From Dehalococcoidia bacterium (GTDB taxonomy: Bacteria; Chloroflexota; Dehalococcoidia; Bin125): a stretch of DNA of 64,000 nucleotides. Where the stretch lies: the NCBI GenBank assembly GCA_965242565.1, contig OZ251457.1, forward strand, positions 1,935,863 through 1,999,862, read 5' to 3'. Shown in pieces: positions 22,801 to 51,910 of this stretch. The position numbers and the translations under genes were made by a program. The notes beneath the pieces are model-generated. The model worked only from the letters and a program-made list of their open reading frames with translations. It ran no database searches and had not been told where the DNA came from. Every line of letters begins with the position of its first letter. Position 1 is the first letter of the stretch.

Positions 22801-24129
22801 ATGCGCGCCGTTGCGGCACTCCTACTGCTCGCCGCGTTCTGGCTGGCGCTCGCCGCCTGCGGCGGCGGGGCGGAGCCGGCGCCCACGGCTGCCGAGCCGC
22901 AGACGCAGCCCCAACAAAACGATGAGCAGCCTGCGCCGCCCGATCAGTCTGAAGAAGAGGCCGACCAGCCCAACCAGCCCGAACCGGCGGCGCAGCAAGC
23001 GGCCGGATCGCAGCAGACCCAGCCGCCCGACGAGCCTGAGCCGCAGGCCGCGCCCGCGGACCCGCCGCCGGAGATCGCCGAGTTTGTCGAAGCGCTCGGC
23101 GGGCGCGCGTTCGAGCAACCGATCGAGCTGCTCGCCTGGCCGGGCGGCGGACTGCTCGTCGCCGAGCAGCGCGGCGGCGTCTCCCTCTATCTCGGCGACG
23201 GCTCGGTGCGCGGCGTCCTCGACCTCAGCGAGCGGGTGATCTTCCGCGGCGAGCAGGGGCTGCTCAGCGTGGCGCTCGATCCCGAGTTCGTCGATCACCC
23301 CTTCCTCTACGTCTGGTACTCGCCGCGCGGAACGAACATCGCGCGGCTCTCCCGCTTCCCGGTGGAGGGCGCGCTGGCCGACGCCGAGCGCGAGCTGATC
23401 ATCATCGAAGTCGCGCAGCCCTTCCCCAACCACAACGGCGGCGCGGTGCGCTTCGGACCCGACGGCATGCTCTACCTCGGCATCGGCGACGGCGGCGCGG
23501 CCAACGATCCGCACGGACACGGACAGAACGCGCAAACGCTGCTGGGCGCAATCATCCGCATCGACGTGCGCGACGCCTCCACGCAATATCCCTACCGCGT
23601 GCCCGCCGACAACCCGCTGCTGGGCGTCGCCGGCGTCCGCCCCGAAATCTACGCCTGGGGCATGCGCAACCCCTGGCGCATGGCGTTCGATCCCGAAACC
23701 GGCGCACTCTGGTATGCCGATGTCGGGCAAAACCGCGTCGAAGAGGTGGGCATCATCGCGCCCGGCGGCAACCACGGCTGGAACGTCTTCGAAGGCACGG
23801 AATGCTTCGGGCGCGACGACGACTGCGCCGCGCTCGACCACATCCCGCCGCTCGCCGAGTACGGCCACGATCTGGGCTGCTCCGTCACCGGCGGCGTGGT
23901 CTACCGCGGCGCGGAATTGCCCTGGCTCGACGGCGCCTACCTCTTCGCCGACTACTGCTCGGGCCGCGTCTGGGCGCTCGAGCAGCTCGACGGCGCGTGG
24001 CAAATGCGCGAACTGGCGCAGCTCGACGCCCTGATCGCCTCCTTCGGCATCGACGCCGCAGGCGAGGTCTACCTGCTCACCTTCGACGGCCCCATCCTCC
24101 GCCTCAGCGCCGCCGCGGCGGGCGGGTAG
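22801..24129 (+). CDS. PQQ-dependent sugar (glucose/sorbosone) dehydrogenase family lipoprotein
   Basis: Lipoprotein signal (LAACGGG) with a Q/P/E-rich linker. GSDH beta-propeller motifs: ELLAWPGGGLLVAEQRG, HNGGAVRFGPDGMLYLGIGDGG, HGWNVFEG. Confidence 0.8.
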   Translation: MRAVAALLLLAAFWLALAACGGGAEPAPTAAEPQTQPQQNDEQPAPPDQSEEEADQPNQPEPAAQQAAGSQQTQPPDEPEPQAAPADPPPEIAEFVEALGGRAFEQPIELLAWPGGGLLVAEQRGGVSLYLGDGSVRGVLDLSERVIFRGEQGLLSVALDPEFVDHPFLYVWYSPRGTNIARLSRFPVEGALADAERELIIIEVAQPFPNHNGGAVRFGPDGMLYLGIGDGGAANDPHGHGQNAQTLLGAIIRIDVRDASTQYPYRVPADNPLLGVAGVRPEIYAWGMRNPWRMAFDPETGALWYADVGQNRVEEVGIIAPGGNHGWNVFEGTECFGRDDDCAALDHIPPLAEYGHDLGCSVTGGVVYRGAELPWLDGAYLFADYCSGRVWALEQLDGAWQMRELAQLDALIASFGIDAAGEVYLLTFDGPILRLSAAAAGG

Positions 24130-24168
24130 CATTGGGGCAACGGCCGGCGAACACTGAAGGAGGGCCAT

Positions 24169-25662
24169 GTGGCGCAATCGAGAGCATTCGGAACGACGCC
24201 GGCCCCGGAAATCCCCGACGGCCTCACCTGGCTTAACACCGGCCGCGACCTCACCATGGCCGACCTGCACGGGCGGCTCACCATCCTCCACTTCTGGACC
24301 TACGCTTGAATCAACTGCCTGCATGTGCTTCCGCAGTTGCGGAAGCTTGAGCGCCGCTACCCCGACACCGTCCAGGTCGTCTCCGTCCACTCGCCCAAAT
24401 TCCCCACCGAGCGCGAGACCGCCAACCTGCGCCAGGCCGTGCTGCGCCTGCGCATCGAGCACCCCGTGCTCAACGACGCCGACTTCCAGTTCTGGCAGCG
24501 CTACGGCGCGCGCGCCTGGCCCACCATCTTCTTCATCGACCCGCGCGGCAACGTGATCGGTCTGCACGAGGGCGAACTGACCGAGGACATGGCCGCCCCG
24601 CTGATCGACGGCTGGCTCGCCGAGTACCAACAGGAATCCGTGCTCGCTGGTGAGCCTCTCGCCCTGACCCGCGAAACCGGCGCAGAGAGCGCCCTCTCCT
24701 TCCCCGGCAAGGTCGCCTGGGACGACGCGAGCGGGCGGCTGATCGTCGCCGACACCAACAACGACCGCATCCTCGTCGCCGATCTCGAGGGCAACGTCTC
24801 GCTGGTCGTGGGCGGCGCGGGCGCGGGCTTCGAGGACGGTGGCGCGAGCGAGGCCAAGTTCAACCAGCCGCAAGGCGTCGCAATTGACGGCGACGCGATC
24901 TACGTCGCCGACAACGAAAACCACGCCATCCGCCGCATCGATCTGCCGTCGGGCGAAGTGCGAACCATCGCCGGCACCGGCGAGCAGGCGCGGATGATGC
25001 CCTCCGGCGCGCCCGCCGCCCAGACCGCGCTCAGCTCCCCCTGGGATGTCGCCGTGCGTGACGGACAGCTCTACATCGCCATGGCCGGCATCCACCAACT
25101 CTGGTCCATGGACCTGCGCGCCGGCGACTCCGCGACCGTCGCCCCTTGGGCCGGCAGCGGACGCGAGGGCATCGTCGACGGGCCCCGCGAGCAGGCCGAA
25201 CTCGCCCAGCCCAGCGGACTCGCCGTGGGCGAGTCGGGGTTGGCCTTCGCCGACAGCGAATCCAGCGGCGCGCGCGAGGTGACCTGGGACGGCCGCGTCG
25301 AAACCTTCATCGGCAAAATCGGCAGCCTCTTCCACTTCGGCGACGAAGACGGCGCCCGTGAGCGCGCCAAGCTCCAGCACCCGCTCGACCTCGCCTGGCT
25401 CGGCGACGAGCTCTACGTCGCTGACACCTTCAACCACAAAATCAAGCAGGTCTACCCGCGCATGCAGAGCGTCCAGACCGTCCTCGGCGGCCACGGCGAC
25501 GCCCTCGGCGCGTTCTCCGAAACCCAACTCAACGAGCCCGGCGGCCTCTGCGCCGGCCCCGACCGTTCCCTGATCGTCGCCGACACCAACAACCACCGCA
25601 TCGTCCAGCTCGACCTCGCCTCAGCCCGCTCCCGCGAAATCCCCCTCCGCCTCGATCGGTAG
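24169..25662 (+). CDS. Thioredoxin-fold (TlpA/redoxin-like) + NHL-repeat protein with in-frame UGA (Sec) at 24307-24309: candidate selenoprotein (UxxC)
   Basis: GTG 24169 lies 6 nt after the SD 'aaggagg'. The frame reads ...LTWLNTGRDLTMADLHGRLTILHFWTYA-[TGA]-INCLHVLPQLRKLERRYPDTVQVVSVHSP..., which is the WCxxC block of thioredoxin-fold oxidoreductases with TGA at the first Cys. Downstream are four NHL repeats (NNDRILVADLEGN, DNENHAIRRIDL, DTFNHKIKQV, DTNNHRIVQLDL). The ORF track split this gene into a wrong-frame piece (24167..) and 24325... Confidence 0.6.
24327..24346 (+). promoter_or_regulatory. SECIS-like RNA hairpin (8-bp perfect stem gcttccgc/gcggaagc, loop AGUU) starting 20 nt 3' of the UGA
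   Basis: Loop centre is about 28 nt from the UGA, with G-U in the apical loop. This fits bacterial SECIS spacing and loop criteria. Confidence 0.4.
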
Positions 25663-25690: not shown

Positions 25691-26719
25691 ATGTCGATCA
25701 GCGATCGCGCCGGCCAGCGGGGCGCGCCCTCGGGGACCGTGGAGGCGACGCCATCGGTGATTGCGTGGGCGCTCGCCGAGTCCGGTATGGACGCGGCGGA
25801 ACTCGCGCGGCGCGTCGGCGTGTCGGAGGGCGAGATCGGCAGCTGGATCGCGGCGGAGAGTCGGCCGCGACGCAACGAGTTTCGCAGGCTCGCCCAAGCG
25901 GTAGGCCGCCCCGAGGCCGTGTTCTTTCTGCCGTCGCCGCCCGCGGAATCGGGCATTCCCCAACAGTTTTGTTCGCTCGGCAAACCGGACCCGATGCTGG
26001 ACCGCCGGTTAGTGCTTGAGATCCGCCGCGCGCGGCGAATTCAGGAGCTGATCAGCTGGATACGCAAGGATGCGGGCCAGCGTCCGGCCTGCTCGTCATC
26101 CTTGCCGCGCCTGCGCGTTGGCGAGGATATCCCAACGGCGGCGGCGGAGCTGCGCCGCTGGCTTGGCCTGCCCGCTGCCGCGCAGGACGACCCGCCCGGT
26201 GCGCCGAATGAGTTTCGCTCGCTGCGCGAGGCATTGGAGCGCAGCGGAGTGATCGTGATGCAACGGCGAGTGGGGGACGAGCAGATTCGGGGTTTCGCCG
26301 TCGCCGACGACCGGGCGCCGCTGATCGTCGTCAACCTCGCGGAAGCCTCACATAAGCGCGCACTCACCCTGATCCACGAGTTGGCTCATCTCGCGTCGGA
26401 ATCTGTTTCGGTCTGCGTTGCGCCGAGCGTCGATCCCGAGCTGCGCGATATCGAAGAATGGTGCGATCTCGTCGCCGCCGACGTCCTGTCGTCTTACAAC
26501 GCGGGAGAGCAGCTGACGACCTCCGGCGACTTGGCTCCGAACGGCGCGGCGGCGCGTCGCATCCACGAGTTCGGCGCGCCGGTCATACAGGTGCTCCATC
26601 ACGCTGAGCAACGGGATCGAATTACGCTCCACGATGTGTTCGATCACCTCGAACTCAACAGCGATGAATGGGACGATCTGCTAAGCGAACTCAAACAGCC
26701 GGAGCACCCGCTTGCCTGA
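25691..26719 (+). CDS. HTH (XRE-like) + ImmA/IrrE family zinc metallopeptidase (DUF955) fusion protein
   Basis: N-terminal HTH (MDAAELARRVGVSEGEIGSWIAAES). C-terminal HExxH (LTLIHELAHLASE). SD ggggaggag 7 nt upstream of ATG 25691. Confidence 0.7.
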   Translation: MSISDRAGQRGAPSGTVEATPSVIAWALAESGMDAAELARRVGVSEGEIGSWIAAESRPRRNEFRRLAQAVGRPEAVFFLPSPPAESGIPQQFCSLGKPDPMLDRRLVLEIRRARRIQELISWIRKDAGQRPACSSSLPRLRVGEDIPTAAAELRRWLGLPAAAQDDPPGAPNEFRSLREALERSGVIVMQRRVGDEQIRGFAVADDRAPLIVVNLAEASHKRALTLIHELAHLASESVSVCVAPSVDPELRDIEEWCDLVAADVLSSYNAGEQLTTSGDLAPNGAAARRIHEFGAPVIQVLHHAEQRDRITLHDVFDHLELNSDEWDDLLSELKQPEHPLA

Positions 26720-27224
26720 TGTCTGGATCTTCGACAGCTCGGGCATTATCGACATCCGCCGTGAGATCCCCGATACGCGAGCAGCCATCCGCCGCGAACT
26801 CCTCGCTCGGATGGCCGCGATGGTGGACGCGGAGGCGCTCTGCTTTCCCCATCAGGTGTACAGCGAACTGACTGCGCAACCGACGGACGACATCTTCGCA
26901 GTGTGGGCGAAACAGGTCCGCCGGGGCATCCGCCGCCACTACGCGCCGCCCGAATCGATAGTGCGCGAAGTGCTTGCGCGACAGCCGCTGCTCGCCGACG
27001 CGAGAAAGCAGACCGTGGACGCGGATCCCTACGTCGTTGCTCAGGCGCTCGCGATTCGGCGAGATGGGTCAAGCGTCGCAATCGTCACCCGGGACTACGT
27101 CGACAGGTTGCCGCACACAACCTCGATCGCAACCGCGTGCGACGATCCGGCAATCGCCGTTCCACACATGCGTTTGCCTGAGTTCTGCGACGCCATCGGC
27201 TTCGATCTGGCGCGCGATCCATAA
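26712..27224 (+). CDS. DUF4411-like (PIN-like) protein, partner of the ImmA/IrrE gene
   Basis: MPDVWIFDSSGIIDIRREIP... The start overlaps the upstream stop by 8 nt. DUF4411 genes classically follow HTH-ImmA genes. The call is from N-terminal pattern and context. Confidence 0.5.
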   Translation: MPDVWIFDSSGIIDIRREIPDTRAAIRRELLARMAAMVDAEALCFPHQVYSELTAQPTDDIFAVWAKQVRRGIRRHYAPPESIVREVLARQPLLADARKQTVDADPYVVAQALAIRRDGSSVAIVTRDYVDRLPHTTSIATACDDPAIAVPHMRLPEFCDAIGFDLARDP

Positions 27225-27591: not shown

Positions 27592-30500
27592 ATGCCCGCC
27601 CACGAACACACCATCAACACCGCCCTCGGCGAGGTCCTCCAGGAACTCCGACCCACCAGCTGGAACGTGCGCGCTGAAGAACGCGGAACGCTCCGGAACA
27701 GCGCAAAGCGCCCCGACATCCTGATCCTCGAACCCGCCGGTTGGCCCGTCGTGATCGAAGCCGAGCGCGAGAACTACGCCAGCGCCGAGCAAGACGCCCG
27801 CGCCCGCCTCGGCGAAACCGCCACAGGAGCCAGCGGCCGCATCGAAAGCGCCATCGCGCTCGTCTACCCGCCCGATGTCCGCGAGCAGACGGGCGGCAGA
27901 GCGATTCGCGCCGCGCTGAGAGCGACGGACGCTCTCGAGTACGCCCTCTACAGCGCCACCTCCGTCGATGCCGTCGAGCGCCTCCCCGAATCCGGCTGGC
28001 TGCGCGGCAACGTGCGCGACCTGGCGATGCTCGCCCAGCGCGCCGCCATTCCCGCCCAGCGCGTTGAGCGCCTGGTCGACGCGCTCGAATCCGGTGTGAG
28101 CGCGGCGGCGGGCGAGTTCAACCGCCGGCACCGCTCGCACGGCGTCGGCATCGGGGGAGCCGTCGCCGAGGTGTTGGGCCAGAGCGACGACCAGGCCGGG
28201 CAGACCCGCCTGATGGCGATGACCGTACTGATCAACGCGCTGATCTTCCACGAGTCGCTGGCGCAGGCCGGGCTGGCGCTGGACGACGAGCGGACCGTCG
28301 CGCTCGCGCAGCAGTTCAACTCAACCGCGTCGGGCTTCGATCAGCAGGCGATCATCGCGGAGTGGCGGGCGATCCTGGAGGTCAACTACTGGCCGATCTT
28401 CGCGACCGCCGGCGAGATTCTCCAGCGGCTCCCAATCGCGACCGCGAACGCCGTGCTGCAACCGCTCTGGGAAGCCGCCCGGCAGCTGATCCGCGGCGGC
28501 GTGACCAAGTCGCACGACCTGACCGGCGTGATCTTCCAGCGGTTGATCGCCGATCGCAAGTTTCTCGCCACCTACTACACGCGCCCGGCCGCCGCCGCGC
28601 TGCTGGCCGGCTTGGCGCTGCATCCGCGCGGCGCCTCCGACGGCGCGGGCTGGGGCGACGCGGAGGCGGTCGCCGGTCTCCAGATCGGCGATTTCGCCTG
28701 CGGCACGGGCACGTTGCTGGCGGCCGCCTACCAGCGCGTCTCGCTGCTGCACGAGCTGCACGGCGGCGACCCGCAGGCGCTGCACGCGCCGATGATGCGC
28801 GACGGCCTGGTCGGGCTGGATGTGCTCAACATCGCCGTGCATCTGACCGCCACGATGCTGGCCGGCAGCCATCCCGACACGCCGTTCGACGGCGACTGTC
28901 TGCTCACCATGCCCTACGGCACGCAGAACGGCGACTCGGTCGCGATCGGCTCGCTCGACCTGTTGGCCGCGGAGACGCAGGGCAACCTGATCGACGCCGC
29001 GGTGGCGATGACGGCGGGCGGCCACGCGCCCAAGGAGGTGCCGGACCTCGTCTCGCGGCTCGGACACGGCAAGTTCGACCTGGTGATCATGAATCCGCCG
29101 TTCACCCGCTACACCGGCAACGAGGGCTTCAAGATCGGCGCGGGCAATCCGGCCTTCGGCGCGTTCGAGACGACCGAGCACGACCGCGACCGCATGCGCC
29201 GCGCGTTGCAGCGCTCGCGCGGCGCCGGCACCTTGGGCGGCGGCAACGCCGGGCTGGCGGCGGATTTCCTGGACCTCGCGCTGCGCAAGCTGACCGAGCG
29301 CGGCGCACTGGCGCTGGTGCTGCCGCTGAGTGCGCTCAGCGGGGTGGACTGGCAGGCCGCGCGCGCCGCGCTGCGCAATCAGTTCGACGAGCTGACGGTC
29401 GTCACCGTGGCGGGCGCGAAGTCGGACGACTCGTCGTTCTCCGCCGACACGGGCATGGCCGACTGCCTGATCGTCGCCGCGCGGAGCGGCGCGCAGGCTG
29501 ATCGGCCGCGCGCGGAGCGGGCGCGGTTCATCGTGCTGGACGCGCGGCCGGGCTCCGCGCAGGAAGGCGCGCTGCTGGCCGCCGAGATCCTGCGGGCCGG
29601 CGCGAACGGATCGGTCGCGCGGCTGGAAGACCCGACCAGCAGCACGACGCTGCGGCTCGGCGGCGCGGCCTACGGCTCGATCGTCGACGCGCCGCTGCCG
29701 GACGAAGGCGGTTGGCCGATCGCCGGCGTCGCCGACCTGCAGCTGGCGGCGGCCGCGCACAACCTCGCCGGCTCCGGCGCGTTCCCGCTGCTCTTCCACG
29801 GCGACGACGGTGTGCGCATTCCGGTCGCGCCGCTGGGCGCAATCGCCGAACGCGGTCCGTATCACATGGACATCAAGGGCAAGAACAGCGACGGCACGGC
29901 GCGCGGCCCGTTCAGCATCACCCGCCCGCCGCGCGTGCCTGTGCCAACCTACCCGGTGCTCTGGAGGCACGACGCAAAGCGCGAGCGCACCTTGCAGATC
30001 GAGCCGGACACGCAGGGCGAGGTGATCAACGGCGCGACCGATGAAGAGCGGGCCGCCATTCTGCGCAAGACGCCCGAAGTCTGGGCCAGCGCCACCCGCG
30101 CCCACTACAACCGCGATCTACGGTTCAACTCGCAATCGCTGATCGCCGCGATGACGGAGCGGAAGTGCATCGGCGGGCGCGGCTGGCCGTCCGTGATCTT
30201 CGCGGACACCGCGCACGAGTACGCATTCGCGCTCTGGTGCAACTCCTCGATCGGCTTGCTGATCCACTGGTGGGTCAGCAACAAGACGCAGGCGGGGCGG
30301 GGCTCTACGCCGATCACGAGCATCCCCGCCATCCCAACGCTCGATACCCGCGCGCTGACCGATGCGCAGCACGCCGCCGCCCGCGAAGCGTTCGAAGCGA
30401 TGCGCGAACTCCGCTTCCTCCCGTTCGACCAGATCGACGAGGACCCGGCCCGCGCGGAGCTGGACCGCCGCCTGCTCGTCGACGTCCTCGGCCTGCCAGC

Positions 30501-30642
30501 TTCCCTCTGCGAGGAGGACGGCCCCATTGACCTGCTCCGCCACAAGCTCGCCAGAGAACCCCAAATCCACGGCGGCAAGAAATCCCGCGTCGTCTTCACC
30601 GAAGACGGCGAGAAAACCGAGCGCCGCACCGACCGCGATTAG
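27592..30642 (+). CDS. Fused restriction-modification enzyme, type IIG/IIL-like (N-terminal PD-(D/E)xK-like nuclease + gamma-class N6-adenine methyltransferase + C-terminal putative TRD)
   Basis: N-terminus RPDILILEPAGWPVVIEAERE (D...ExE/K-like). MTase motif I DFACGTGTLLAAAYQ precedes motif IV LVIMNPPFTRY (gamma order, as in MmeI/Eco57I-type enzymes). 1016 aa; no separate S or R gene nearby. Confidence 0.6.
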   Translation: MPAHEHTINTALGEVLQELRPTSWNVRAEERGTLRNSAKRPDILILEPAGWPVVIEAERENYASAEQDARARLGETATGASGRIESAIALVYPPDVREQTGGRAIRAALRATDALEYALYSATSVDAVERLPESGWLRGNVRDLAMLAQRAAIPAQRVERLVDALESGVSAAAGEFNRRHRSHGVGIGGAVAEVLGQSDDQAGQTRLMAMTVLINALIFHESLAQAGLALDDERTVALAQQFNSTASGFDQQAIIAEWRAILEVNYWPIFATAGEILQRLPIATANAVLQPLWEAARQLIRGGVTKSHDLTGVIFQRLIADRKFLATYYTRPAAAALLAGLALHPRGASDGAGWGDAEAVAGLQIGDFACGTGTLLAAAYQRVSLLHELHGGDPQALHAPMMRDGLVGLDVLNIAVHLTATMLAGSHPDTPFDGDCLLTMPYGTQNGDSVAIGSLDLLAAETQGNLIDAAVAMTAGGHAPKEVPDLVSRLGHGKFDLVIMNPPFTRYTGNEGFKIGAGNPAFGAFETTEHDRDRMRRALQRSRGAGTLGGGNAGLAADFLDLALRKLTERGALALVLPLSALSGVDWQAARAALRNQFDELTVVTVAGAKSDDSSFSADTGMADCLIVAARSGAQADRPRAERARFIVLDARPGSAQEGALLAAEILRAGANGSVARLEDPTSSTTLRLGGAAYGSIVDAPLPDEGGWPIAGVADLQLAAAAHNLAGSGAFPLLFHGDDGVRIPVAPLGAIAERGPYHMDIKGKNSDGTARGPFSITRPPRVPVPTYPVLWRHDAKRERTLQIEPDTQGEVINGATDEERAAILRKTPEVWASATRAHYNRDLRFNSQSLIAAMTERKCIGGRGWPSVIFADTAHEYAFALWCNSSIGLLIHWWVSNKTQAGRGSTPITSIPAIPTLDTRALTDAQHAAAREAFEAMRELRFLPFDQIDEDPARAELDRRLLVDVLGLPASLCEEDGPIDLLRHKLAREPQIHGGKKSRVVFTEDGEKTERRTDRD

Positions 30643-31871: not shown

Positions 31872-32639
31872 CTATTGCGCCCGCCACTCGGCGCGGCGCT
31901 TCTCGCGGAACGCCGCCGGGCCTTCTTTGGCGTCCGACGTCTCACGCGCCACCCGCCGCATCGTCTCGCCGAAGCGGATCGCCTGCACGAACGGCAGCTC
32001 CTGTCCGCGGTGCGCCACCTCCTTGGTCGCCCGCACCGCCAGCGGCGCGCCCTTGCAGAGCCGCTCGGCCAGCGCCCGCGCCTCATCCATCAGCCGCTCA
32101 TGCTCGACGACCGCCCAGACCAGCCCCATCTCCTTCGCCCGCTGCGCGTTCACCCGGTCGCCGATCAGCAGCAGCTCCATCGCGTGATGCCAGGCGACCT
32201 TCTTGGGCATCCGAATCGCGCCCTGGATGGTCGGCACGCCGATCTGCACCTCGGGGAAGCCGAACTCCGCGCGGTCGCTGGCGATCGCGAAGTCGCAGGC
32301 CGCGACCAGCGTCAGCGCGAAACCGAGCGCGTAGCCGTTGACCGCCGCGATGGTCGGCTTCCAGATTTCCATCCCGCTTTCCAGCGAGGTCAGCGAGGGC
32401 ACCTCCCAGAACGTGTGCTCTTCCGGCGGCGCCGGGCTGCGCAGGTCCGCGCCCGCCGAGAACGCGCGCCCCGCGCCGGTCACGATCGCCACCCAGGCGT
32501 CGTCGTCCTCGCGGAAGGCGCTCCAGGCCGCGTTGAGGTCCTCACGCAGCTCGTGGTTGATCGCGTTTAGCGCCTCGGGCCGGTTGTAGGTGATCGTGGC
32601 GATGCGTCCATCGCGCTCATAAAGGGCAGTGTCGGTCAT
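31872..32639 (-). CDS. Enoyl-CoA hydratase/isomerase (crotonase) family protein
   Basis: MTDTALYERDGRIATITYNRPEALNAINHELREDL...TGAGRAFSAGADL. Start at ATG 32639 rather than the ORF-track 32723. Confidence 0.8.
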   Translation of the reverse strand: MTDTALYERDGRIATITYNRPEALNAINHELREDLNAAWSAFREDDDAWVAIVTGAGRAFSAGADLRSPAPPEEHTFWEVPSLTSLESGMEIWKPTIAAVNGYALGFALTLVAACDFAIASDRAEFGFPEVQIGVPTIQGAIRMPKKVAWHHAMELLLIGDRVNAQRAKEMGLVWAVVEHERLMDEARALAERLCKGAPLAVRATKEVAHRGQELPFVQAIRFGETMRRVARETSDAKEGPAAFREKRRAEWRAQ

Positions 32640-32700
32640 GCGCGCCTCTCTGCGACAATCGGGGGTTGCCCGCACGATACCGCCCCACCAGAAGCGCCGC

Positions 32701-33861
32701 TCAGAGCGGCTCCGTCCCTTCACTCAGGATGTCCAGATACTCGCCGTAAGCGAAGAGCCGATTGCGGCGCTGGCCTGTGATCTCGCGCACAATGCCGAGC
32801 TCGGCGAGCAGCGCGGTCGCAACAGTGATGGTCGATGCAGCGATGCCTGCGTCCTCTTGAATCGCGGATGCGGAGAGAACGGGGCGTCGTATCAATGCAT
32901 CATGCACCCGCAGCGCCGCCATCGCGCGGCGTCCGGTCTGTTCGATCCGGCTGCGATCAGTGGCGAAGAGCGTCGAGAGTCGACGCGCGCTGCGCACTCC
33001 GTCTTCAGCGGTGATGCGTACGCCCCGGATGAAGAACTCGAGCCAACTCTCCCAATCTCCCAGGGTGCGCAGCTGGCTCAGATGATCGTAGTAGCGAGAT
33101 CGGAGTTCCTTGAAGTAGAGACTGAGGTAGAGGATCGGATCACTGAGGATGCCCGCATCGTGCAGCATCAGCACGATTAGGAGACGCCCGACCCGGCCGT
33201 TGCCGTCGAGGAACGGGTGGATGCTCTCAAACTGCGCGTGGACCAGGCCGGCGCGAACGAGCGCTGGTATACCGTCGTGCGTGTCGTGAATGAAGCGCTC
33301 GAGCGCAGCCATGCAGTCTTCGACTTCCGAGGCCGGCGGCGGCACATAGACAGCACGGCTCGGCCGTGGGCCGCCGATCCAGTTCTGCGAACGACGGAAT
33401 TCCCCCGGCAGCTTCTCGCTGCCCCGACCGGAGCGCAGAAGCACGCGATGCATCTCGCGGATCAGGCGATTGCTCAACGGCAGCCCCTCACGGAGAAGAC
33501 GCCGACCGTGCTCGAGCGCTGCGACGTAGTTGGACACCTCCGTCACATCGTCGATCTGCGCTTCCGGCGTGTGCCCAAGCTCGAACTGGAGGAAGTCGGT
33601 GAGCGACGACTGTGTGCCTTCGATCTGTGAAGAGAGGAGCGCTTCCCGACGCACGTAGGCGTAGAGGAAAAGGTCGCTGTTCGGCAGCTGCCGGGATTCT
33701 GCGTCGAGTCGTCCAAGCGCCACATGCGCCGCCTCCAGGGATTGCAGAAGCCAGTCGAACTCAAGCGGTGGATCCGGCGGCAGCGGTGGTGGAACGAACG
33801 CTCGCACCGTCTCGTCGGCGAAGGTCGTGACGACGTAACGACCCTTGTTCTCGCGTCGCAT
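32701..33861 (-). CDS. Fic family protein (canonical HPFxDGNGRxxR motif) with C-terminal winged-helix
   Basis: HPFLDGNGRVGRLLIVLML is the Fic active-site motif. N-terminal Fic_N-like region (LSSQIEGTQSSLTDFLQFE). Start ATG 33861 (MRRENKGRYVVT...). Confidence 0.75.
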   Translation of the reverse strand: MRRENKGRYVVTTFADETVRAFVPPPLPPDPPLEFDWLLQSLEAAHVALGRLDAESRQLPNSDLFLYAYVRREALLSSQIEGTQSSLTDFLQFELGHTPEAQIDDVTEVSNYVAALEHGRRLLREGLPLSNRLIREMHRVLLRSGRGSEKLPGEFRRSQNWIGGPRPSRAVYVPPPASEVEDCMAALERFIHDTHDGIPALVRAGLVHAQFESIHPFLDGNGRVGRLLIVLMLHDAGILSDPILYLSLYFKELRSRYYDHLSQLRTLGDWESWLEFFIRGVRITAEDGVRSARRLSTLFATDRSRIEQTGRRAMAALRVHDALIRRPVLSASAIQEDAGIAASTITVATALLAELGIVREITGQRRNRLFAYGEYLDILSEGTEPL

Positions 33862-33879
33862 GGCTGATTGCCTCTTTCG

Positions 33880-34060
33880 CGCGAACTTGGAATAGCGGGC
33901 CGCGCTATTTCGCCTACGTCGTGATCTTAGAATAGCACCACGGATTCGTAGGTCGCTATGAAAGAACTTGGAACAACGCGGAACAATGCCGCCCGCTGTT
34001 CCAAGTTTGTCACGTACTTGGAACAGCGGGCGGCATTGTTTTGAGTTGCGAACCTGGCGA
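33880..34060. promoter_or_regulatory. Operator-like repeats upstream of Fic gene
   Basis: '(g)aacttggaa(c/t)agcgggc' appears at 33884 and 34012. Inverted repeat 'cttggaaca-N21-tgttccaag' at 33960-34005. Confidence 0.35.
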
Positions 34061-34149
34061 CCTGTAGACGCCCTTGCTGGTCTGTAGAGCTGCCACGTTG
34101 GGCTACCTATGCCCTCGGTGTGGCAAGGCAACGGATGCGTTGCGCCCCA

Positions 34150-35037
34150 TCACGACACCTGCAGCGCCCCCAGATGCTCCGCCGCGAACTGCTGGAGCAG
34201 CGTCTCCGGATCCGGTGCCGCCGGGTGCAGATTGACGATCGCGTGGTCGAAGCCCAGCGCACGCATCTCGCCCAGACGCTCCGCCGCCTCGCCCAGCCGC
34301 CCCTCCTCCAGCGCCGCGATCCGGTTGATCCCCAGCCGCAGCGCCCCGGCGTCGCGCCCCGCGTCCGACGCCGCCTGACGCACCCGATCCCAGTCCGTCG
34401 CCAGCGTGTCGAGCATCGCCGGGTTGGCCAGATAGCCGTCGGCCAGCCGTCCGGCGCGGTCCAGCTGGCGCGGGTGGTTGCCGCCCAGCCAGATCGGCAC
34501 CCGCCGCGGCGGCTGCGGGCGGCTGTACCAGCCCTCGGTGTCGTAAAACTCCCCGCGGAACGAGCCCACCTCGTTCTCCCACAGGTCGCGCAGCACCGCC
34601 AGATACTCGTCCATCCGCGCCCCGCGACGGTCGAACGGCATCGAGAGTGCCTCGAACTCCTCCTTCCACCAGCCCACGCCCGCGCCCAGAATCACCCGCC
34701 CGCCGGCCAGATGATCGAGCGTCGCGATCAGCTTCGCGTGCAGCACCGGCGCTCGCATCGGCAGCACCAGCACCGCCGTGCCCAGCTCGACCCGCTCGGT
34801 CACCGCCGCCGCGTAGGTCAGCAGGGTCAGCGGCTCCAGGAACGCGCTGTCGGCCGGCACCAGAAAGCGCCCGTCCTCGCTGTAAGGGTAGTCGGAGCCC
34901 TGATCCGGCCGCAGCACCACGTGATCAAATGCCCAGAGCGAGTCGAAGCCCGCCGCCTCGACCGCGCGCGCCACCCGCACCACCTGCTGCGCCGTCGCCG
35001 CCGGACCGACCTGCGGAACGTAGACACCGACTTTCAT
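34150..35037 (-). CDS. LLM-class (luciferase-like) F420/flavin-dependent oxidoreductase
   Basis: MKVGVYVPQVGP...GFDSLWAFDHVV...ILGAGVGWWKEEFEALSMPFDRRGARMDEYL is a typical LLM-family pattern. Start at 35037. Confidence 0.7.
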   Translation of the reverse strand: MKVGVYVPQVGPAATAQQVVRVARAVEAAGFDSLWAFDHVVLRPDQGSDYPYSEDGRFLVPADSAFLEPLTLLTYAAAVTERVELGTAVLVLPMRAPVLHAKLIATLDHLAGGRVILGAGVGWWKEEFEALSMPFDRRGARMDEYLAVLRDLWENEVGSFRGEFYDTEGWYSRPQPPRRVPIWLGGNHPRQLDRAGRLADGYLANPAMLDTLATDWDRVRQAASDAGRDAGALRLGINRIAALEEGRLGEAAERLGEMRALGFDHAIVNLHPAAPDPETLLQQFAAEHLGALQVS

Positions 35038-35120
35038 TTCAGCCCTCCTCCGCTGCGCGGGCGGTAGCATCGCCCGATGCACCGCAGTATCGCGCACGCG
35101 CCGGCCCGCTGGTGAGCGGC

Positions 35121-36368
35121 ATGAGCGAGTCGGGCGATCGGCGGCGCTTCGAGCGCCCGCCTCTGCGCCGCGTCTTCGCGATCCGCGACTACCGCATGCT
35201 CTGGTCCGGCGCGCTGGCGATGATCATCGCCCAGCAACTCCGCTTCCTCGCGATCCCCCAGTGGGTGCTCGACGAAACCGGCGAGTTCGCCCAGATCGCG
35301 ATCATCGGCGCCATCCAGCTGCCGGTGCAGATCATCGCCGTGCTCTACGGCGGCGTGCTCGCCGACCGCTTCGACCGCCGCTGGCTGATGGCCGGCTCCA
35401 ACGCGATCGTCTTCCTCCTGCTGGTGCTGCTGGCCGCCGCGGCGACTGCGGACATATTGCTCGTCTGGCACACCTGGGTCGTGCTCGCCGTGTTGGCCGC
35501 CCTGGCCGTGTTCGTCGCCCCCGCCCGCGCCACGATCACCCCCCGCGTCGTGCCCGAGCGCTACCTCTCCACCGCCGTCACCATCGACACCGGCACTCAG
35601 AACGGCGGCTGGATCCTCGGCAACGTGCTCTTCACCGCGATCGTCTCCCTGATCGATGTCACCGCCGCGCTCTGGGCCGCCGCCGGCTTCGCCGCCGTCT
35701 CCACCCTGATGCCGATGCTGATCCGCACCTCCGCCCGAGCCGCCGGCGAGCGCGCCGGTGCGCTCGCCAGCGTCGTCGCCGGCGGACGCTTCGTCGCCCG
35801 CCACCCGATCCTGCCCGGCCTCTTCCTGCTCGATTGGGGCATCACCGTCGTCTCCTACTACCGCGAAATCCTGCCCGTGCTCTCCACCGGCCTCTTTATG
35901 GCTGGCGCGAGCGCCGCCGGCGGACTGGGCACGGCCAACGCAGTCGGCTCCGTCGGCGGCATGCTGCTCGCCCTCTTCCTCGTCCACGAGCGCGCCAAAG
36001 GGATGCTCGTGCTGATCGCCTCGCTGGTTTACGCCGCCCTGCTCTTCGCCATGGGCACAGCGCCCTGGCTCTGGCTCGGACTGATCGTGATCGCCATGCT
36101 CGGCGCAGCCGACGCCGTCACCGTCGCCGTGCGACAGTCCACCGTCCAACTGACCACGCCCGACGAAATGCGCGGCCGCGCCTTCTCCTTCATGGTGCTC
36201 GCCGCGCAGACCGCCAACAATGTCGGCATCATCTGGGTCGGTTTCTGGGCCGGCTCGATCGGCGCGCCCAACGCGATGCTGCTCGGCGGCGCGCTCGGCA
36301 TCGCCGCCACCCTGCTGATCGGCCTGCTGTGGAAATCCGTCCGCGCCTACCGCGCCCCGGCCGTCTGA
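35121..36368 (+). CDS. MFS transporter (EntS/YbdA-like)
   Basis: 12-TM hydrophobic profile. N-terminal motif GALAMIIAQQLRFLAIPQWVLDETG...LYGGVLADRFDRRWLM. Confidence 0.7.
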   Translation: MSESGDRRRFERPPLRRVFAIRDYRMLWSGALAMIIAQQLRFLAIPQWVLDETGEFAQIAIIGAIQLPVQIIAVLYGGVLADRFDRRWLMAGSNAIVFLLLVLLAAAATADILLVWHTWVVLAVLAALAVFVAPARATITPRVVPERYLSTAVTIDTGTQNGGWILGNVLFTAIVSLIDVTAALWAAAGFAAVSTLMPMLIRTSARAAGERAGALASVVAGGRFVARHPILPGLFLLDWGITVVSYYREILPVLSTGLFMAGASAAGGLGTANAVGSVGGMLLALFLVHERAKGMLVLIASLVYAALLFAMGTAPWLWLGLIVIAMLGAADAVTVAVRQSTVQLTTPDEMRGRAFSFMVLAAQTANNVGIIWVGFWAGSIGAPNAMLLGGALGIAATLLIGLLWKSVRAYRAPAV

Positions 36369-36422
36369 GTGGATACGCTCACTGCACGCACACACATCTA
36401 CGCCCACGGACGGAGGCCCACA

Positions 36423-37115
36423 ATGACCACCGCAGCGCAGGCCGGTTTCGGCCCCGAACTGTTCGACTTCCTCGAAGAGCTCGAGCTGAACAACCGCCGC
36501 GACTGGTTCGAGGCCAACCGCGAGCGCTACGAGTCCGACCTCCGCGAGCCCGCCTTCGAGCTGATTCGCGCCGTCCGCCCGCTGCTCGCCAAAATCTCGC
36601 CCGCGATCATCGCCCGCGACGCCAAAGTCGGCGGCTCGCTGATGCGCATCCACCGCGATGTCCGCTTCTCGCCCGACAAATCGCCCTACAAAACCAACGT
36701 CGGCATCCAATTCCGCCATCGCGCCGGCAAGGATGTCCACGCGCCCGGCTACTACATCCACCTCTCGCCCGACGACTGCTTCTTCGGCGCCGGCAGCTGG
36801 ATGCCCGACCGCGACGCGCTCGCCGCCTACCGCGAGGCCATCGCCGAACACCCCAAAGAGTGGAGCAAGCTCGCCCGCCGCTACCAGAAGTCCCCCTGGC
36901 GCATCGACGGCGACAAACTCAAGCGCCCGCCCAGAGGCTGGAGCGCCGACCACCCCATGATCGAAGAGCTCAAGCGCAAACACTTCATCGCCGTCCGCAA
37001 CTTCACCCACGAAGACGCCCTGAGCGACACCTTTCCCGTCCAAATCGCCGCCTGGTGCAAGGCAACAGCCCCCCTCATGGCCTTCCTTTGCACCGCCGCC
37101 GCCCTCGACTTCTAA
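36423..37115 (+). CDS. TIGR02453/DUF2461 family protein
   Basis: FLEELELNNRRDWFEANRERYE...HRDVRFSPDKSPYKTNVGIQF matches the DUF2461 signature. Confidence 0.7.
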   Translation: MTTAAQAGFGPELFDFLEELELNNRRDWFEANRERYESDLREPAFELIRAVRPLLAKISPAIIARDAKVGGSLMRIHRDVRFSPDKSPYKTNVGIQFRHRAGKDVHAPGYYIHLSPDDCFFGAGSWMPDRDALAAYREAIAEHPKEWSKLARRYQKSPWRIDGDKLKRPPRGWSADHPMIEELKRKHFIAVRNFTHEDALSDTFPVQIAAWCKATAPLMAFLCTAAALDF

Positions 37116-37119
37116 GCCC

Positions 37120-37565
37120 TGCTCACACTCCCGCCATTCCCGCCCACATCTCCGTCATACCCGCCGCCCCCTTTTCCCGTCATTCCCGCCCCCGAGCGGG
37201 AATCGGCCCCGATACGCCGCCGCCCCCTCCCGTCATACCCGCGCTTGCCGCGGAGCCTGCCCCTGGCTCGAACAGGGGTATCTCGACGCTAACGCACCAA
37301 ACGCCACGAACCGCCCTCACCTCCCCCGCTCCAGCGCCTCTCCATCGCTCACCCGCCCCTTTTCCCGTCATTCCCGCCCCTGAGCGGAAATCGGCCCCAA
37401 CACCCCACCACACCCCCTCCCGTCATACCCGCGCTTGCCGCGGGTATCCCGACGAGAACAGCACCAACGCCGCATCCCGCCACCTGTCCATCATTCCCGT
37501 CCCTTTTCTCACCATTCCCTTCCCCCCGAGCGAGAATCAGCCTCGGCCTGCGCCAGAGCAACGGC
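37120..37565. repeat. Large repeat cluster (several copies of 'catacccgcgcttgccgcgg...tatc(t/c)cgacg' and 'ttttcccgtcattcccgcccc(c/t)gagcgg(g/a)aatcggcccc' modules; one copy carries an inserted secondary hairpin gcccctggctcgaacagggg)
   Basis: Same family as 300-560 and 6935-7085. Confidence 0.6.
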
Positions 37566-37603
37566 ACTTAGCAGTGCTCGAATCAGTCCTTCTGCGCGCT
37601 GAA

Positions 37604-41381: not shown

Positions 41382-41552
41382 CTGTTTCCCCTCTTGTCCG
41401 ACCTCCGCGATCCGGCGCACGGGCAGCAGACTACGGGCATGCGAACTGTTCGGTCAAACGAATGAGGGGACTTGGGCTGACGCGTCGCCAGTCCGCCGCT
41501 CAGAGGGAGGCGCGTACCCTGCCCCCAACCCTCGATCAGAAGGAGCACCCCA

Positions 41553-44132: not shown

Positions 44133-44139
44133 TCGCGCC

Positions 44140-50826: not shown

Positions 50827-50839
50827 TCACGGGTGTGGA

Positions 50840-50937
50840 TGGCGGGAGCGCATGGGAGTCGAACCCACCCGAGACGGCGCGGGCCGCCCCGCAACGGTTT
50901 TGAAGACCGGGAGGGCCACCGGGCCCCTTCCGCTCCC
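50840..50937 (-). tRNA. selC: tRNA-Sec (selC), anticodon UCA
   Basis: Minus-strand sequence GGGAGCGG-AA-GGGGCC-CGGT-GGCCCT-CCCGGT-CTTCAAA-ACCGTT-(24-nt extra arm GCGGGGCGGCCCGCGCCGTCTCGG)-GTGGG-TTCGACT-CCCAT-GCGCTCCC-G-CCA. D-stem 6 bp with 4-nt loop CGGT. Anticodon loop CU-UCA-AA. T-loop TTCGACT as in E. coli selC. 9-bp variable-arm stem. Discriminator G and encoded CCA. About 8-nt acceptor strands (one G-G mismatch at the last pair). Confidence 0.7.
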
Positions 50938-50967
50938 ACGCTCACTCTACCCGACCAGCCGCGCCGA

Positions 50968-51827: not shown

Positions 51828-51910
51828 CCGGACATCCTCGCTCCATCCCGTGCCGGGAGCCGCCCGCTCATTCTAGCGCGCTCGACGGAGTCGGGCGCGA
51901 CAGAACTCGA

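What the first reader, a model, noticed from the sequence alone, without database searches (positions are those of the whole stretch)
24169..25662. Mis-split gene is probably a selenoprotein: thioredoxin-fold/NHL-repeat protein with Sec (UGA) replacing the first Cys of CxxC
- The frame opening right after the upstream stop (tag 24127-24129) has the SD 'aaggagg' and GTG 24169. It reads ...PEIPDGLTWLNTGRDLTMADLHGRLTILHFWTYA-TGA-INCLHVLPQLRKLERRYPDTVQVVSVH...
- That is the textbook thioredoxin-fold thiol:disulfide oxidoreductase block (substrate-binding strand, then F-W-x-x-W-C-x-x-C, then helix). The TGA (24307-24309) sits exactly at the first Cys, giving U-I-N-C.
- The frame continues without interruption through GTG 24325 into the 445-aa NHL-repeat ORF (24325-25662). 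Without read-through neither the thioredoxin domain nor the NHL part would have a sensible start or end.
- Twenty nucleotides 3' of the UGA there is a perfect 8-bp hairpin, gcttccgc-AGUU-gcggaagc (24327-24346). Its apical loop is about 28 nt from the UGA and contains G-U. This is the geometry expected for a bacterial SECIS.
- A structurally convincing tRNA-Sec (selC) lies at 50840-50937 in the same window, so the organism has Sec-decoding capacity.
- UxxC thioredoxin-like selenoproteins are known, but a Trx-NHL (NHLRC2-like) architecture with Sec would be unusual and may be undescribed.
Basis: partly seen in the sequence, partly recalled or inferred. Interest (0 to 1): 0.85.

Follow-up and report, generated by a model that had tools for sequence, protein, structure and literature searches.

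The report
Selenocysteine form of NHLRC2/SOQ1-type protein
The two "genes" at 24169-25662 are one gene for a thioredoxin-plus-propeller protein related to human NHLRC2 and plant SOQ1. Selenocysteine, encoded by an in-frame UGA, replaces the active-site cysteine, and databases cut this widespread form short at that codon.

Summary
The observation and the interpretation both hold.

- **One gene.** GTG 24169 to TAG 25662 is a single 497-codon gene with an in-frame TGA at 24307-24309.
- **Cys column.** The TGA falls on the first Cys of the CxxC motif. Cys homologues read FWTYC-C-INC; the window reads FWTYA-U-INC.
- **Recurrence.** In 80 species-level genomes holding a relative, 40 have a stop in this column, always TGA. 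Another 39 have TGC or TGT.
- **SECIS.** All 38 members of the main Sec clade carry the same hairpin, YUUCCGC-AGUU-GCGGAAR, 17 nt after the UGA. It shows compensatory changes and meets all four criteria of the published bacterial SECIS model. Cys forms lack it.
- **Coding upstream.** The 42 codons before the UGA are under purifying selection.
- **Sec capacity.** A tRNA-Sec lies at 50840-50937. TGA is otherwise an ordinary stop in this window.
- **Family.** The protein aligns end to end with human NHLRC2 (E 7e-107) and Arabidopsis SOQ1. Sec aligns with Cys-90 of the CCINC motif.
- **Annotation.** Every close relative found in the protein database, RefSeq included, is truncated at the UGA. A 2026 catalogue of 119 prokaryotic selenoprotein families does not list this architecture.

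The decoding mechanism is standard. The family assignment appears new and marks this residue as the catalytic redox centre. selA, selB and selD, and actual selenium incorporation, remain untested.

The parts
24157..24163 (+). Shine-Dalgarno AAGGAGG, 5 nt before the GTG start
   Evidence: Read directly from the sequence.
24169..25662 (+). Complete selenoprotein gene: 497 codons (GTG start, one in-frame UGA = Sec at codon 47) plus stop TAG 25660-25662. It replaces the mechanical ORFs 24169-24309 and 24325-25662.
   Evidence: Searches show the frame. One search aligns it with full-length Cys homologues. One search gives a full-length match to NHLRC2 (6gc1, E 7e-107) and SOQ1 (7djj, E 8e-101). One search gives pN/pS of 0.16-0.46 for the 42 codons upstream of the UGA.
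24307..24309 (+). Sec codon UGA (residue 47), aligned with the first Cys of CxxC, which is Cys-90 of human NHLRC2 CCINC
   Evidence: This column holds TGA in 41 of 41 stop-containing sequences and TGC/TGT in 39 of 39 Cys forms.
24307..24318 (+). Redox motif U-I-N-C (TGA ATC AAC TGC); the resolving Cys codon is 24316-24318
   Evidence: INC or VNC is invariant in all homologues.
24327..24346 (+). Bacterial SECIS hairpin GCUUCCGC-AGUU-GCGGAAGC; apical loop 24335-24338 with G at loop position 2 followed by U
   Evidence: -13.8 kcal/mol, z -4.8; covariation at pairs 22-39 (UA 20 / CG 15), 24-37 (UA 31 / CG 4 / GC 1) and 27-34 (GC 35 / CG 1 / UA 1), with 0 of 500 shuffles reaching the score; mean dG -10.8 kcal/mol in Sec forms against -4.05 in Cys forms, p 2e-12. 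Criteria taken.
24196..24618 (+). Thioredoxin-like domain (about residues 10-150), including cis-Pro P118 (24520-24522) and D103, the equivalent of the human FINCA residue Asp148
   Evidence: Pfam Thioredoxin_8 at 3e-11 and AhpC-TSA at 2e-9; alignment to 6gc1. N102, D103, W117, P118 and T119 are invariant.
24682..25641 (+). Six-bladed NHL-repeat beta-propeller domain (about residues 172-491)
   Evidence: Pfam NHL at 3.5e-31; match to the NHLRC2 propeller 6g7w at E 2e-67.
50840..50937 (-). tRNA-Sec (selC), anticodon UCA, with long variable arm and encoded CCA
   Evidence: ARAGORN; RF01852, 69.7 bits against gathering score 47; sequence and fold.

Best explanation
Positions 24169-25662 are one gene for a leaderless, so presumably cytoplasmic, 497-residue protein of the NHLRC2/SOQ1 family. 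It has an N-terminal thioredoxin-like domain packed against a six-bladed NHL beta-propeller.

**Decoding.** The attacking cysteine of the CxxC redox motif is replaced by selenocysteine, giving A-U-I-N-C. UGA 24307-24309 is decoded as Sec by the standard bacterial route. The 8-bp AGUU-loop hairpin 17 nt downstream acts as a SECIS. It is inferred to recruit SelB.GTP.Sec-tRNA(Sec) to the ribosome as it reaches the UGA. The tRNA is encoded at 50840-50937. Gene callers stop at the UGA and restart at GTG 24325, inside the SECIS region, which produces the truncated 445-aa protein seen in databases.

**Shown here:**
- the single conserved reading frame;
- the Cys/Sec column;
- the conserved, covarying hairpin that only the Sec forms carry;
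- the tRNA-Sec;
- family membership.

**Inferred function.**
- The selenolate attacks an oxidised substrate held in the cleft between the Trx domain and the propeller cup. That substrate could be a disulfide, a sulfenic acid, or possibly methionine sulfoxide as proposed for SOQ1.
- Cys50 then resolves the selenenylsulfide.
- A cellular reductant recycles the enzyme.
- The SOQ1/NHLRC2 C-terminal domain is absent, so the Trx domain would act on its substrate directly rather than relaying electrons to that domain.
For: - **Frame, SD and start:**
- **Sec/Cys column:** Cys homologues read FWTYCCINC against the window's FWTYAUINC.
- **Recurrence of the stop:** of 80 species-level loci, 40 have a stop in this column, all TGA with no TAA or TAG, and 39 have TGC/TGT.
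- **Truncated database entries:** the 81 closest database proteins (98-58% identity) are nearly all cut off at this point, covering 85-90% of the query.
- **Upstream region is coding:** the 42 codons before the UGA have pN/pS of 0.16-0.46, similar to the downstream part.
- **Hairpin:**
  - present in all 38 members of the main Sec clade, with compensatory changes such as CCUC/GAGG in L040 and CCCC/GGGG in L048;
  - pair 22-39 alternates UA (20) and CG (15);
  - much weaker in Cys forms, mean -4.05 against -10.8 kcal/mol, p 2e-12.
- **Published bSECIS model**, all four criteria met:
  - loop of 4 nt;
  - stem of 8 bp;
  - G at loop position 2 followed by U;
  - spacing of 25 nt, and MFE of -13.8 kcal/mol.
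- **Independent origin:** NC10-type Sec forms nested among Cys forms carry a different hairpin that also fits the model.
- **tRNA-Sec:**
- **No code change:** TGA ends 13 of 31 confident genes in the window.
- **Family:** 6gc1 at E 7e-107 over residues 12-487, and 7djj at E 8e-101. U aligns with Cys-90, P118 with cis-Pro163, and D103 with Asp148.
- **Redox role of the motif:** the SOQ1 Trx-like CCINC domain is reported to be redox-active.
- **Sec use in a carrier:** one Sec-form carrier, Dehalococcoidia UBA1141 (L024), is listed with 49 selenoprotein genes in BSepDB.
Against: - There is no direct evidence of selenium incorporation, such as labelling or a peptide.
- selA, selB and selD were not found among the 37 window ORFs scanned against Pfam or NCBIfam. 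The rest of the genome is out of reach.
- The hairpin lies in coding sequence (L-P-Q-L-R-K), so part of its conservation is protein-level. In the 71-nt context its fold is not better than shuffles (z -1.1).
- The hairpin has no bulged U like the E. coli fdhF SECIS.
- The biochemical role is inferred only from homology. NHLRC2 showed no insulin-reductase activity.
- No conserved neighbour gene points to a substrate or a reductant.
Confidence: 0.9

Rival explanations
1. The TGA is a true stop. The locus encodes a 46-residue peptide and a separate 445-residue NHL protein that starts at GTG 24325, as current annotation has it.
For: Gene callers and RefSeq/GenBank annotate exactly this: WP_326522700.1 and the 'alkyl hydroperoxide reductase' entries. 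GTG 24325 exists in frame.
Against: - There is no SD before GTG 24325.
- The 445-aa product would start inside helix alpha-1 of the Trx fold. It would lack the first beta-strand and the whole active site.
- The upstream 42 codons are under purifying selection, and the frame is kept in 40 other species.
- The stop is always TGA and never TAA or TAG.
- The hairpin covaries and is specific to the TGA forms.
Confidence: 0.03
2. The gene is a pseudogene, or the TGA is an assembly or sequencing error for TGC/TGT.
For: A single base change turns TGC or TGT into TGA. One homologue in the database, P0082, is visibly frameshifted. One TGA-bearing locus, L076, has no convincing hairpin.
Against: - The same TGA is present in 40 independent species-level genomes from several phyla.
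- The identical truncated product appears on 17 cluster members from separate assemblies.
- The gene has no other disruption, and pN/pS is low on both sides of the TGA.
Confidence: 0.01
3. The UGA is read through, but by something other than Sec. Candidates are near-cognate Trp or Cys insertion, or a suppressor tRNA, with the hairpin acting as a generic read-through stimulator.
For: Stem-loops downstream of stop codons can stimulate read-through (general knowledge). SelA, SelB and SelD were not seen in the window.
Against: - A bona fide tRNA-Sec is encoded in the same window.
- The column is strictly Cys in homologues and is the nucleophile of a CxxC motif. That is the classic Sec/Cys pair.
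- The hairpin meets the bSECIS-specific loop rule, G then U, and the spacing rule.
- TGA is a normal stop elsewhere in the window.
- A carrier genome, UBA1141, is reported to have 49 selenoprotein genes.
Confidence: 0.04

Closest known systems
Human NHLRC2 (PDB 6GC1/6G7W; mutated in FINCA disease)
   Same: - The Trx-like domain and six-bladed NHL propeller are collinear, E 7e-107 over residues 12-487.
- The active-site motif sits at the start of helix alpha-1, facing the propeller cup.
- cis-Pro163 corresponds to P118 and Asp148 to D103.
   Different: - Sec replaces Cys-90, and Ala replaces Cys-89 (AUINC against CCINC).
[quoted passage not shown]
Arabidopsis SOQ1, lumenal Trx-like/NHL/CTD domains (PDB 7DJJ)
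   Same: The Trx-like plus NHL core matches at E 8e-101. The SOQ1 CCINC domain is reported to be redox-active and linked to methionine-sulfoxide reduction.
   Different: - SOQ1 has a HAD domain, a transmembrane helix and a C-terminal domain that receives electrons from the Trx-like domain. None of these is present here.
- SOQ1 has Cys, not Sec.
[quoted passage not shown]
   Same: - The UxxC motif lies at the N-terminus of helix alpha-1 of a thioredoxin fold.
- Cys-containing homologues are widespread.
- A bSECIS follows immediately 3' of the UGA.
   Different: - Judging by their listed domain IDs and names, those families carry no NHL propeller (Table 1), whereas here the Trx domain is fused to an NHL propeller and is orthologous to NHLRC2/SOQ1.
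- The 'Redoxin family' selenoprotein in the catalogue has a different motif, GFUTVC.
- No NCBIfam selenoprotein model fits: WAxxUGC_long scores 20 bits against a cut-off of 300.
DipZ / cDsbD-type Trx domains (Mycobacterium tuberculosis DipZ, PDB 2HYX)
   Same: This is the nearest stand-alone Trx relative, E 2e-19. Its motif is SCINC, so it shares x-C-I-N-C.
   Different: It has no NHL propeller, carries Cys rather than Sec, and forms part of a membrane electron-transfer protein.

Membership tests
Bacterial selenoprotein gene (SelB/SECIS-dependent UGA recoding) | In-frame UGA aligned with Cys in homologues (a Sec/Cys pair) | tested here: met
   41 sequences have TGA and 39 have TGC/TGT in the same column.
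Bacterial selenoprotein gene (SelB/SECIS-dependent UGA recoding) | bSECIS stem-loop just 3' of the UGA: loop of 3-9 nt, stem of 4-16 bp, G in the first two loop positions, spacing of 16-37 nt, MFE <= -7.5 kcal/mol (model quoted) | tested here: met
   Loop AGUU, 8-bp stem, 25-nt spacing, -13.8 kcal/mol.
Bacterial selenoprotein gene (SelB/SECIS-dependent UGA recoding) | tRNA-Sec (selC) in the genome | tested here: met
   50840-50937, minus strand.
Bacterial selenoprotein gene (SelB/SECIS-dependent UGA recoding) | selA, selB and selD present in the genome | tested here: inconclusive
   None was found among the 37 window ORFs scanned. Only 64 kb of a genome of roughly 3.2 Mb is available (contig sizes).
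Bacterial selenoprotein gene (SelB/SECIS-dependent UGA recoding) | Selenium actually incorporated at the UGA position | not testable with these tools
   This needs 75Se labelling or mass spectrometry.
NHLRC2 / SOQ1 family | [quoted passage not shown] | tested here: met
   6gc1 at E 7e-107 (query 12-487) and 7djj at E 8e-101. Pfam Thioredoxin_8 plus NHL.
NHLRC2 / SOQ1 family | CC(I/V)NC motif at the CxxC position | tested here: inconclusive
   The motif here is A-U-I-N-C. The I-N-C part and its position are kept. The second Cys is Sec and the first is Ala. Other Sec forms have C-U-I/V-N-C, and many Cys forms have G-C-I-N-C, so the first Cys is dispensable in the family.
NHLRC2 / SOQ1 family | Conserved cis-Pro opposite the motif and the Asp mutated in FINCA disease | tested here: met
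   P118 and D103 are invariant in alignment A1 and align with Pro163 and Asp148.
NHLRC2 / SOQ1 family | C-terminal beta-stranded domain (CTD) with a Cys pair | tested here: not met
   The protein ends about 6 residues after the propeller. In all, 38 of 41 Sec forms are this short form, whereas most Cys forms carry 130-180 more residues. [quoted passage not shown] Its absence therefore marks a sub-type and does not exclude membership.
Catalogued Trx-fold UxxC selenoprotein families (2026 review, Table 1) | The family or architecture is listed, or has a dedicated NCBIfam selenoprotein model | tested here: not met
   Table 1 has no NHL, NHLRC2 or SOQ1 entry. No NCBIfam model scores above its cut-off. 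The deep-Sep supplements have no xUINC or xUVNC sequence. The gene may still be binned under a generic Trx/Prx-like family in BSepDB, which I could not inspect.

The most novel reading that the evidence does not exclude
Sec-containing NHLRC2/SOQ1 orthologues form a widespread, previously unrecognised selenoprotein family. They dominate in Dehalococcoidia-type Chloroflexota and also occur in Thermomicrobia, Dormiibacterota, Fervidibacter and NC10. The family arose at least twice, each time with a different SECIS.

Sec is essentially confined to catalytic redox positions. Its recurrence here would therefore identify the Cys-90 equivalent as the catalytic nucleophile of NHLRC2 (FINCA disease) and SOQ1 (plant photoprotection). 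The biochemical activity of both proteins is still unsettled.

The short bacterial Sec form would also be a naturally hyper-reactive, single-polypeptide model enzyme in which to find the substrate.
Probability: 0.5. Interest if true: 0.65.

Novelty: new member of a known kind. Interest (0 to 1): 0.55.

Why it matters
**Annotation.** Hundreds of database entries for this protein are truncated at the UGA, lose the active site, and carry misleading names. Examples are 'alkyl hydroperoxide reductase', 'YncE', 'endoglucanase' and a RefSeq WP_ record. A family-specific selenoprotein model would fix them.

**Biology.** NHLRC2 is an essential human protein mutated in a fatal childhood disease, and SOQ1 controls a photoprotective quenching state in plants. 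Their chemistry is debated: there is no insulin-reductase activity, and a preprint claims methionine-sulfoxide reductase activity for SOQ1.

A natural Sec/Cys pair at the second Cys of CCINC is independent evolutionary evidence that this residue does redox catalysis. Sec was acquired more than once. The first Cys of the doublet is dispensable.

**An experimental route.** To my knowledge (not verified here), one carrier, Candidatus Fervidibacter sacchari PD1, is in culture. If so, a direct test of Sec insertion and of activity is feasible.

Tried and rejected
- **Single-sequence folding.** Folding 24300-24370 gave z -1.1. It is not informative in a 69% GC genome, so I replaced it with comparative analysis.
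- **Structure prediction.** I relied on the sequence match to solved structures instead.
- **Source record.** The look-up of encoding contigs for the window ORF and for P0151 returned nothing, so the source record is not identified.
- **Exact look-up with U.** The listing of cluster members rejects sequences containing U, so only truncated forms could be looked up exactly.
- **Operon search.** I looked for a conserved operon partner. The upstream thiolase-like, OB-fold and glucose/sorbosone-dehydrogenase genes are syntenic only in the three closest genomes. No partner emerged, which agrees with Biterova et al..
- **Sec machinery.** I looked for selA, selB and selD next to selC and among other window ORFs. 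None was found.
- **Other selenoprotein genes.** A scan for in-frame TGA with coding signal on both sides found none in the window.
- **Known selenoprotein families considered and rejected:**
  - NCBIfam 'WAxxUGC ResA-like' scores 20 bits against a cut-off of 300.
  - The catalogue's 'Redoxin family protein' has the motif GFUTVC.
- **Literature.** Searches for NHL, NHLRC2 or SOQ1 together with selenoprotein or selenocysteine, and for the motif strings, gave nothing relevant.
Full report
**1. The observation**

The sequence is as described.
- After the stop TAG at 24127-24129 comes AAGGAGG (24157-24163), and five bases later GTG 24169.
- The frame reads VAQSRAFGTTPAPEIPDGLTWLNTGRDLTMADLHGRLTILHFWTYA, then TGA (24307-24309), then INCLHVLPQLRKLERRYPDTVQVVSVH.... 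It continues without another stop to TAG 25660-25662.
- Mechanical ORF listing splits this into 24169-24309 (46 aa) and 24325-25662 (445 aa).
- The hairpin GCUUCCGC-AGUU-GCGGAAGC occupies 24327-24346.
- ARAGORN and Rfam (RF01852, 69.7 bits against a gathering score of 47) both call a tRNA-Sec at 50840-50937 on the minus strand.
- With U read as C, Pfam finds Thioredoxin_8 and AhpC-TSA at the N-terminus and NHL repeats after it.

**2. The TGA sits in a Cys column and recurs across species**

A search of 5.8 billion proteins returned about 81 close relatives at 98-58% identity. Nearly all are 422-462 residues long and cover only 85-90% of the query, so they are cut off at this same point. Where a source names them, the name is 'alkyl hydroperoxide reductase' or 'YncE'.

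The first full-length hits appear at 50% identity or less and read FWTYC-C-INC where the window reads FWTYA-U-INC.

I fetched 80 species-level genomic loci and translated them through the site.
- 40 loci have a stop in this column, and every one is TGA.
- 39 have TGC or TGT.
- One could not be placed.

The Sec forms come from Dehalococcoidia and other Chloroflexota, Thermomicrobia, Dormiibacterota, Candidatus Fervidibacter sacchari and NC10.

TGA is an ordinary stop in this organism, ending 13 of 31 confident ORFs. A genome-wide code change is therefore excluded.

**3. The stretch before the TGA is coding**

For the 42 codons upstream of the UGA, pN/pS between related genomes is 0.16-0.46. This is similar to the 100 codons downstream. 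The N-terminus also matches that of the Cys homologues residue for residue. A 445-aa product starting at GTG 24325 would have no SD. It would also lack the first strand and the active site of the Trx fold.

**4. The hairpin is a SECIS**

Single-sequence folding in a GC-rich 71-nt context is not significant (z -1.1). The 20-nt hairpin alone folds at -13.8 kcal/mol with z -4.8.

The decisive evidence is comparative.
- All 38 members of the main Sec clade carry YUUCCGC-AGUU-GCGGAAR at the same distance from the UGA.
- On the 41-sequence alignment:
  - pair 22-39 alternates UA (20) and CG (15);
  - pair 24-37 has UA 31, CG 4 and GC 1;
  - pair 27-34 has GC 35, CG 1 and UA 1;
  - 0 of 500 shuffles reach the covariation score, and slid registers score far lower.
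- Some compensations link a synonymous change to a non-synonymous one, for example CCU...AGG in L040 and CCC...GGG in L048. RNA pairing predicts this and protein conservation does not.
- Cys forms encode P-D/E-L-K-K/R here instead of P-Q-L-R-K. They fold at a mean of -4.05 against -10.8 kcal/mol (Mann-Whitney p 2e-12).

The element meets all four criteria of the published bacterial SECIS model.
- The loop is 4 nt (allowed 3-9).
- The stem is 8 bp (allowed 4-16).
- G sits at loop position 2 and is followed by U.
- Spacing is 25 nt (allowed 16-37), and the MFE is below -7.5 kcal/mol.

**5. More than one origin**

In a neighbour-joining tree the 38 canonical-hairpin sequences group together.

The NC10-type pair L044/L052 sits inside Cys clades. 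It carries a different hairpin, CCAGAGC-UGGAC-GCUCUGG, which also fits the model.

L076 is a long form with a signal peptide and also sits among Cys forms. It has the TGA but no convincing hairpin and remains doubtful.

Sec is strongly tied to the short, leaderless architecture. In 38 of 41 Sec forms about 45 residues precede the site and 444-459 follow it. Most Cys forms have a signal peptide or membrane anchor and 130-180 extra C-terminal residues.

**6. What the protein is**

phmmer against PDB sequences gives the following.

| Structure | E-value | Query residues |
|---|---|---|
| Human NHLRC2, 6gc1 | 7e-107 | 12-487 |
| Arabidopsis SOQ1 lumenal domains, 7djj | 8e-101 | 10-491 |
| M. tuberculosis DipZ (Trx part only) | 2e-19 | 5-146 |

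In the 6gc1 alignment, U47 aligns with Cys-90 of the CCINC motif (residues 89-93). P118 aligns with cis-Pro163. D103 aligns with Asp148, the residue mutated in FINCA disease.

Biterova et al. (PMC6107167) describe the following.
- CC(I/V)NC is conserved from bacteria to humans and sits in the cleft between the two domains.
- There is no insulin-reductase activity.
- There is no conserved bacterial gene neighbourhood.

A 2024 preprint (10.1101/2024.11.01.621559) reports that the SOQ1 Trx-like domain is redox-active. It passes electrons to the C-terminal domain, and the lumenal part has methionine-sulfoxide reductase activity.

The window protein lacks that C-terminal domain.

**7. Context in the window**

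Upstream lie a thiolase-like gene, an OB-fold (ChsH2-like) gene and a glucose/sorbosone-dehydrogenase-like gene. Downstream lie an HTH/M78-peptidase gene and a DUF4411 gene.

Only the three closest genomes share the upstream synteny.

No SelA, SelB or SelD domain was found among the 37 window ORFs scanned. tRNA-Sec stands alone beside an isocitrate/isopropylmalate-dehydrogenase-like gene. No other TGA in the window has a coding signature on both sides.

**8. Mechanism**

Shown:
- one reading frame;
- a Sec/Cys pair at the CxxC nucleophile;
- a covarying hairpin specific to Sec forms, in the SECIS position;
- tRNA-Sec in the same window.

Inferred from established knowledge of bacterial Sec decoding: SelB.GTP.Sec-tRNA(Sec) binds the hairpin and delivers Sec at UGA 24307.

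Inferred from family homology:
- the selenolate attacks an oxidised substrate held at the Trx/propeller cleft;
- Cys50 resolves the selenenylsulfide;
- a cellular reductant recycles the enzyme.

The substrate is unknown. Candidates are protein disulfide, sulfenate or methionine sulfoxide.

**9. Novelty**

The most complete catalogue I could read is the 2026 AEM review, PMC13188914, with 119 families. It has no NHL, NHLRC2 or SOQ1 entry.
- Its generic UxxC Trx-fold families are listed with Trx-fold domain IDs only and no NHL domain.
- Its 'Redoxin family' member has a different motif.
- NCBIfam has no fitting model.
- The deep-Sep supplements contain no xU(I/V)NC sequence.

Literature searches combining NHL, NHLRC2 or SOQ1 with selenoprotein terms found nothing relevant.

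Annotation points the same way.
- RefSeq annotates the Fervidibacter gene as a truncated 442-aa protein, WP_326522700.1.
- GenBank does the same for UBA1141 relatives.
- A search with the N-terminal 207 residues of a Sec form found no close relative that includes the part before the UGA.

Caveats:
- Homology-based resources such as BSepDB, which counts 49 selenoprotein genes in UBA1141, may already hold this gene under a generic Trx/Prx-like label. I could not inspect that.
- Subscription-journal papers are not searchable here.

**10. Verdict**

The finding is real and correctly interpreted. The decoding mechanism is entirely standard, and UxxC Trx-fold selenoproteins are a well-known kind. 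I therefore rate it a new member of a known kind, not a new mechanism.

Its value lies in three things:
- correcting a systematic mis-annotation;
- recognising that the Sec form is the prevailing one in a large bacterial clade;
- giving evolutionary evidence that the Cys-90 position of NHLRC2/SOQ1 is a catalytic redox residue.

Interest is 0.55. Confidence in the selenoprotein reading is 0.9.

Noticed in passing
window 24167-24171: An ATG at 24167 overlaps the true GTG start at 24169 but is out of frame. It opens a spurious 129-aa ORF (24167-24556), so gene callers that prefer ATG could pick the wrong frame.
   Followed up: partly
window 25692-27224: Directly downstream lie an HTH_XRE/M78-peptidase (ImmA/IrrE-like) gene and an overlapping DUF4411 gene. 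They sit in a patch of lower GC (0.657 for 26-28 kb) and look like a toxin-antitoxin or defence-type module. The relatives examined do not share it.
   Followed up: partly
window 27592-30639: A 1016-aa ORF with a strong coding signature (GC3 0.90) has no Pfam match at all.
   Followed up: no
window 32000-44500: This stretch has lower GC (0.636-0.676 in several 2-kb windows). It holds a Fic/DOC protein (32704-34131, minus strand), a GmrSD-like nuclease (43086-44129) and a 1395-aa minus-strand ORF (37604-41791) that I did not examine. A second Fic-like protein lies just beyond it, at 47450-48799. The stretch may be a mobile or defence island.
   Followed up: no
window 49714-51872: tRNA-Sec is not next to any sel gene. 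Its neighbours are an isocitrate/isopropylmalate-dehydrogenase-like gene and two small ORFs without family matches (50971-51411 and 51396-51872, minus strand).
   Followed up: partly
L076:4106-4170: A long homologue with a lipoprotein-type signal peptide and the C-terminal domain (motif FWTFG-TGA-VNC) has the in-frame TGA but no hairpin better than shuffles (z +0.26). It could be a non-canonical SECIS, a pseudogene or an assembly error.
   Followed up: partly
L044:4106-4150 and L052:4106-4150: The NC10-type Sec forms are nested among Cys forms. They use a different SECIS, CCAGAGC-UGGAC-GCUCUGG, shifted 3 nt, which suggests an independent Cys-to-Sec conversion.
   Followed up: partly
L055, L065, L072 (about 15-48 nt after the Cys codon): The short Cys forms that branch next to the Sec clade (P-T-L-R-R-L-E) still fold into fairly stable hairpins here, at -7.3 to -10.6 kcal/mol against a Cys-form mean of -4. 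This may be a SECIS remnant after Sec-to-Cys reversion, or simply GC richness.
   Followed up: no
protein P0255: A truncated homologue is annotated in NCBI/UniRef as 'Protein SUPPRESSOR OF QUENCHING 1, chloroplastic [Geodia barretti]'. It probably comes from a bacterial symbiont contig in the sponge assembly, and it too is cut at the UGA.
   Followed up: no
protein P0082: One close homologue (545 aa) matches the window protein for about 270 residues and then runs into an Ala/Arg/Pro-rich out-of-frame tail. This is a frameshift in that assembly.
   Followed up: no
L010:3890-4126: The Fervidibacter Sec form has about 30 extra N-terminal residues with a hydrophobic stretch (MWRILTATAIITMILISVGMML). 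Unlike the other Sec forms, it may be membrane-anchored or exported.
   Followed up: no
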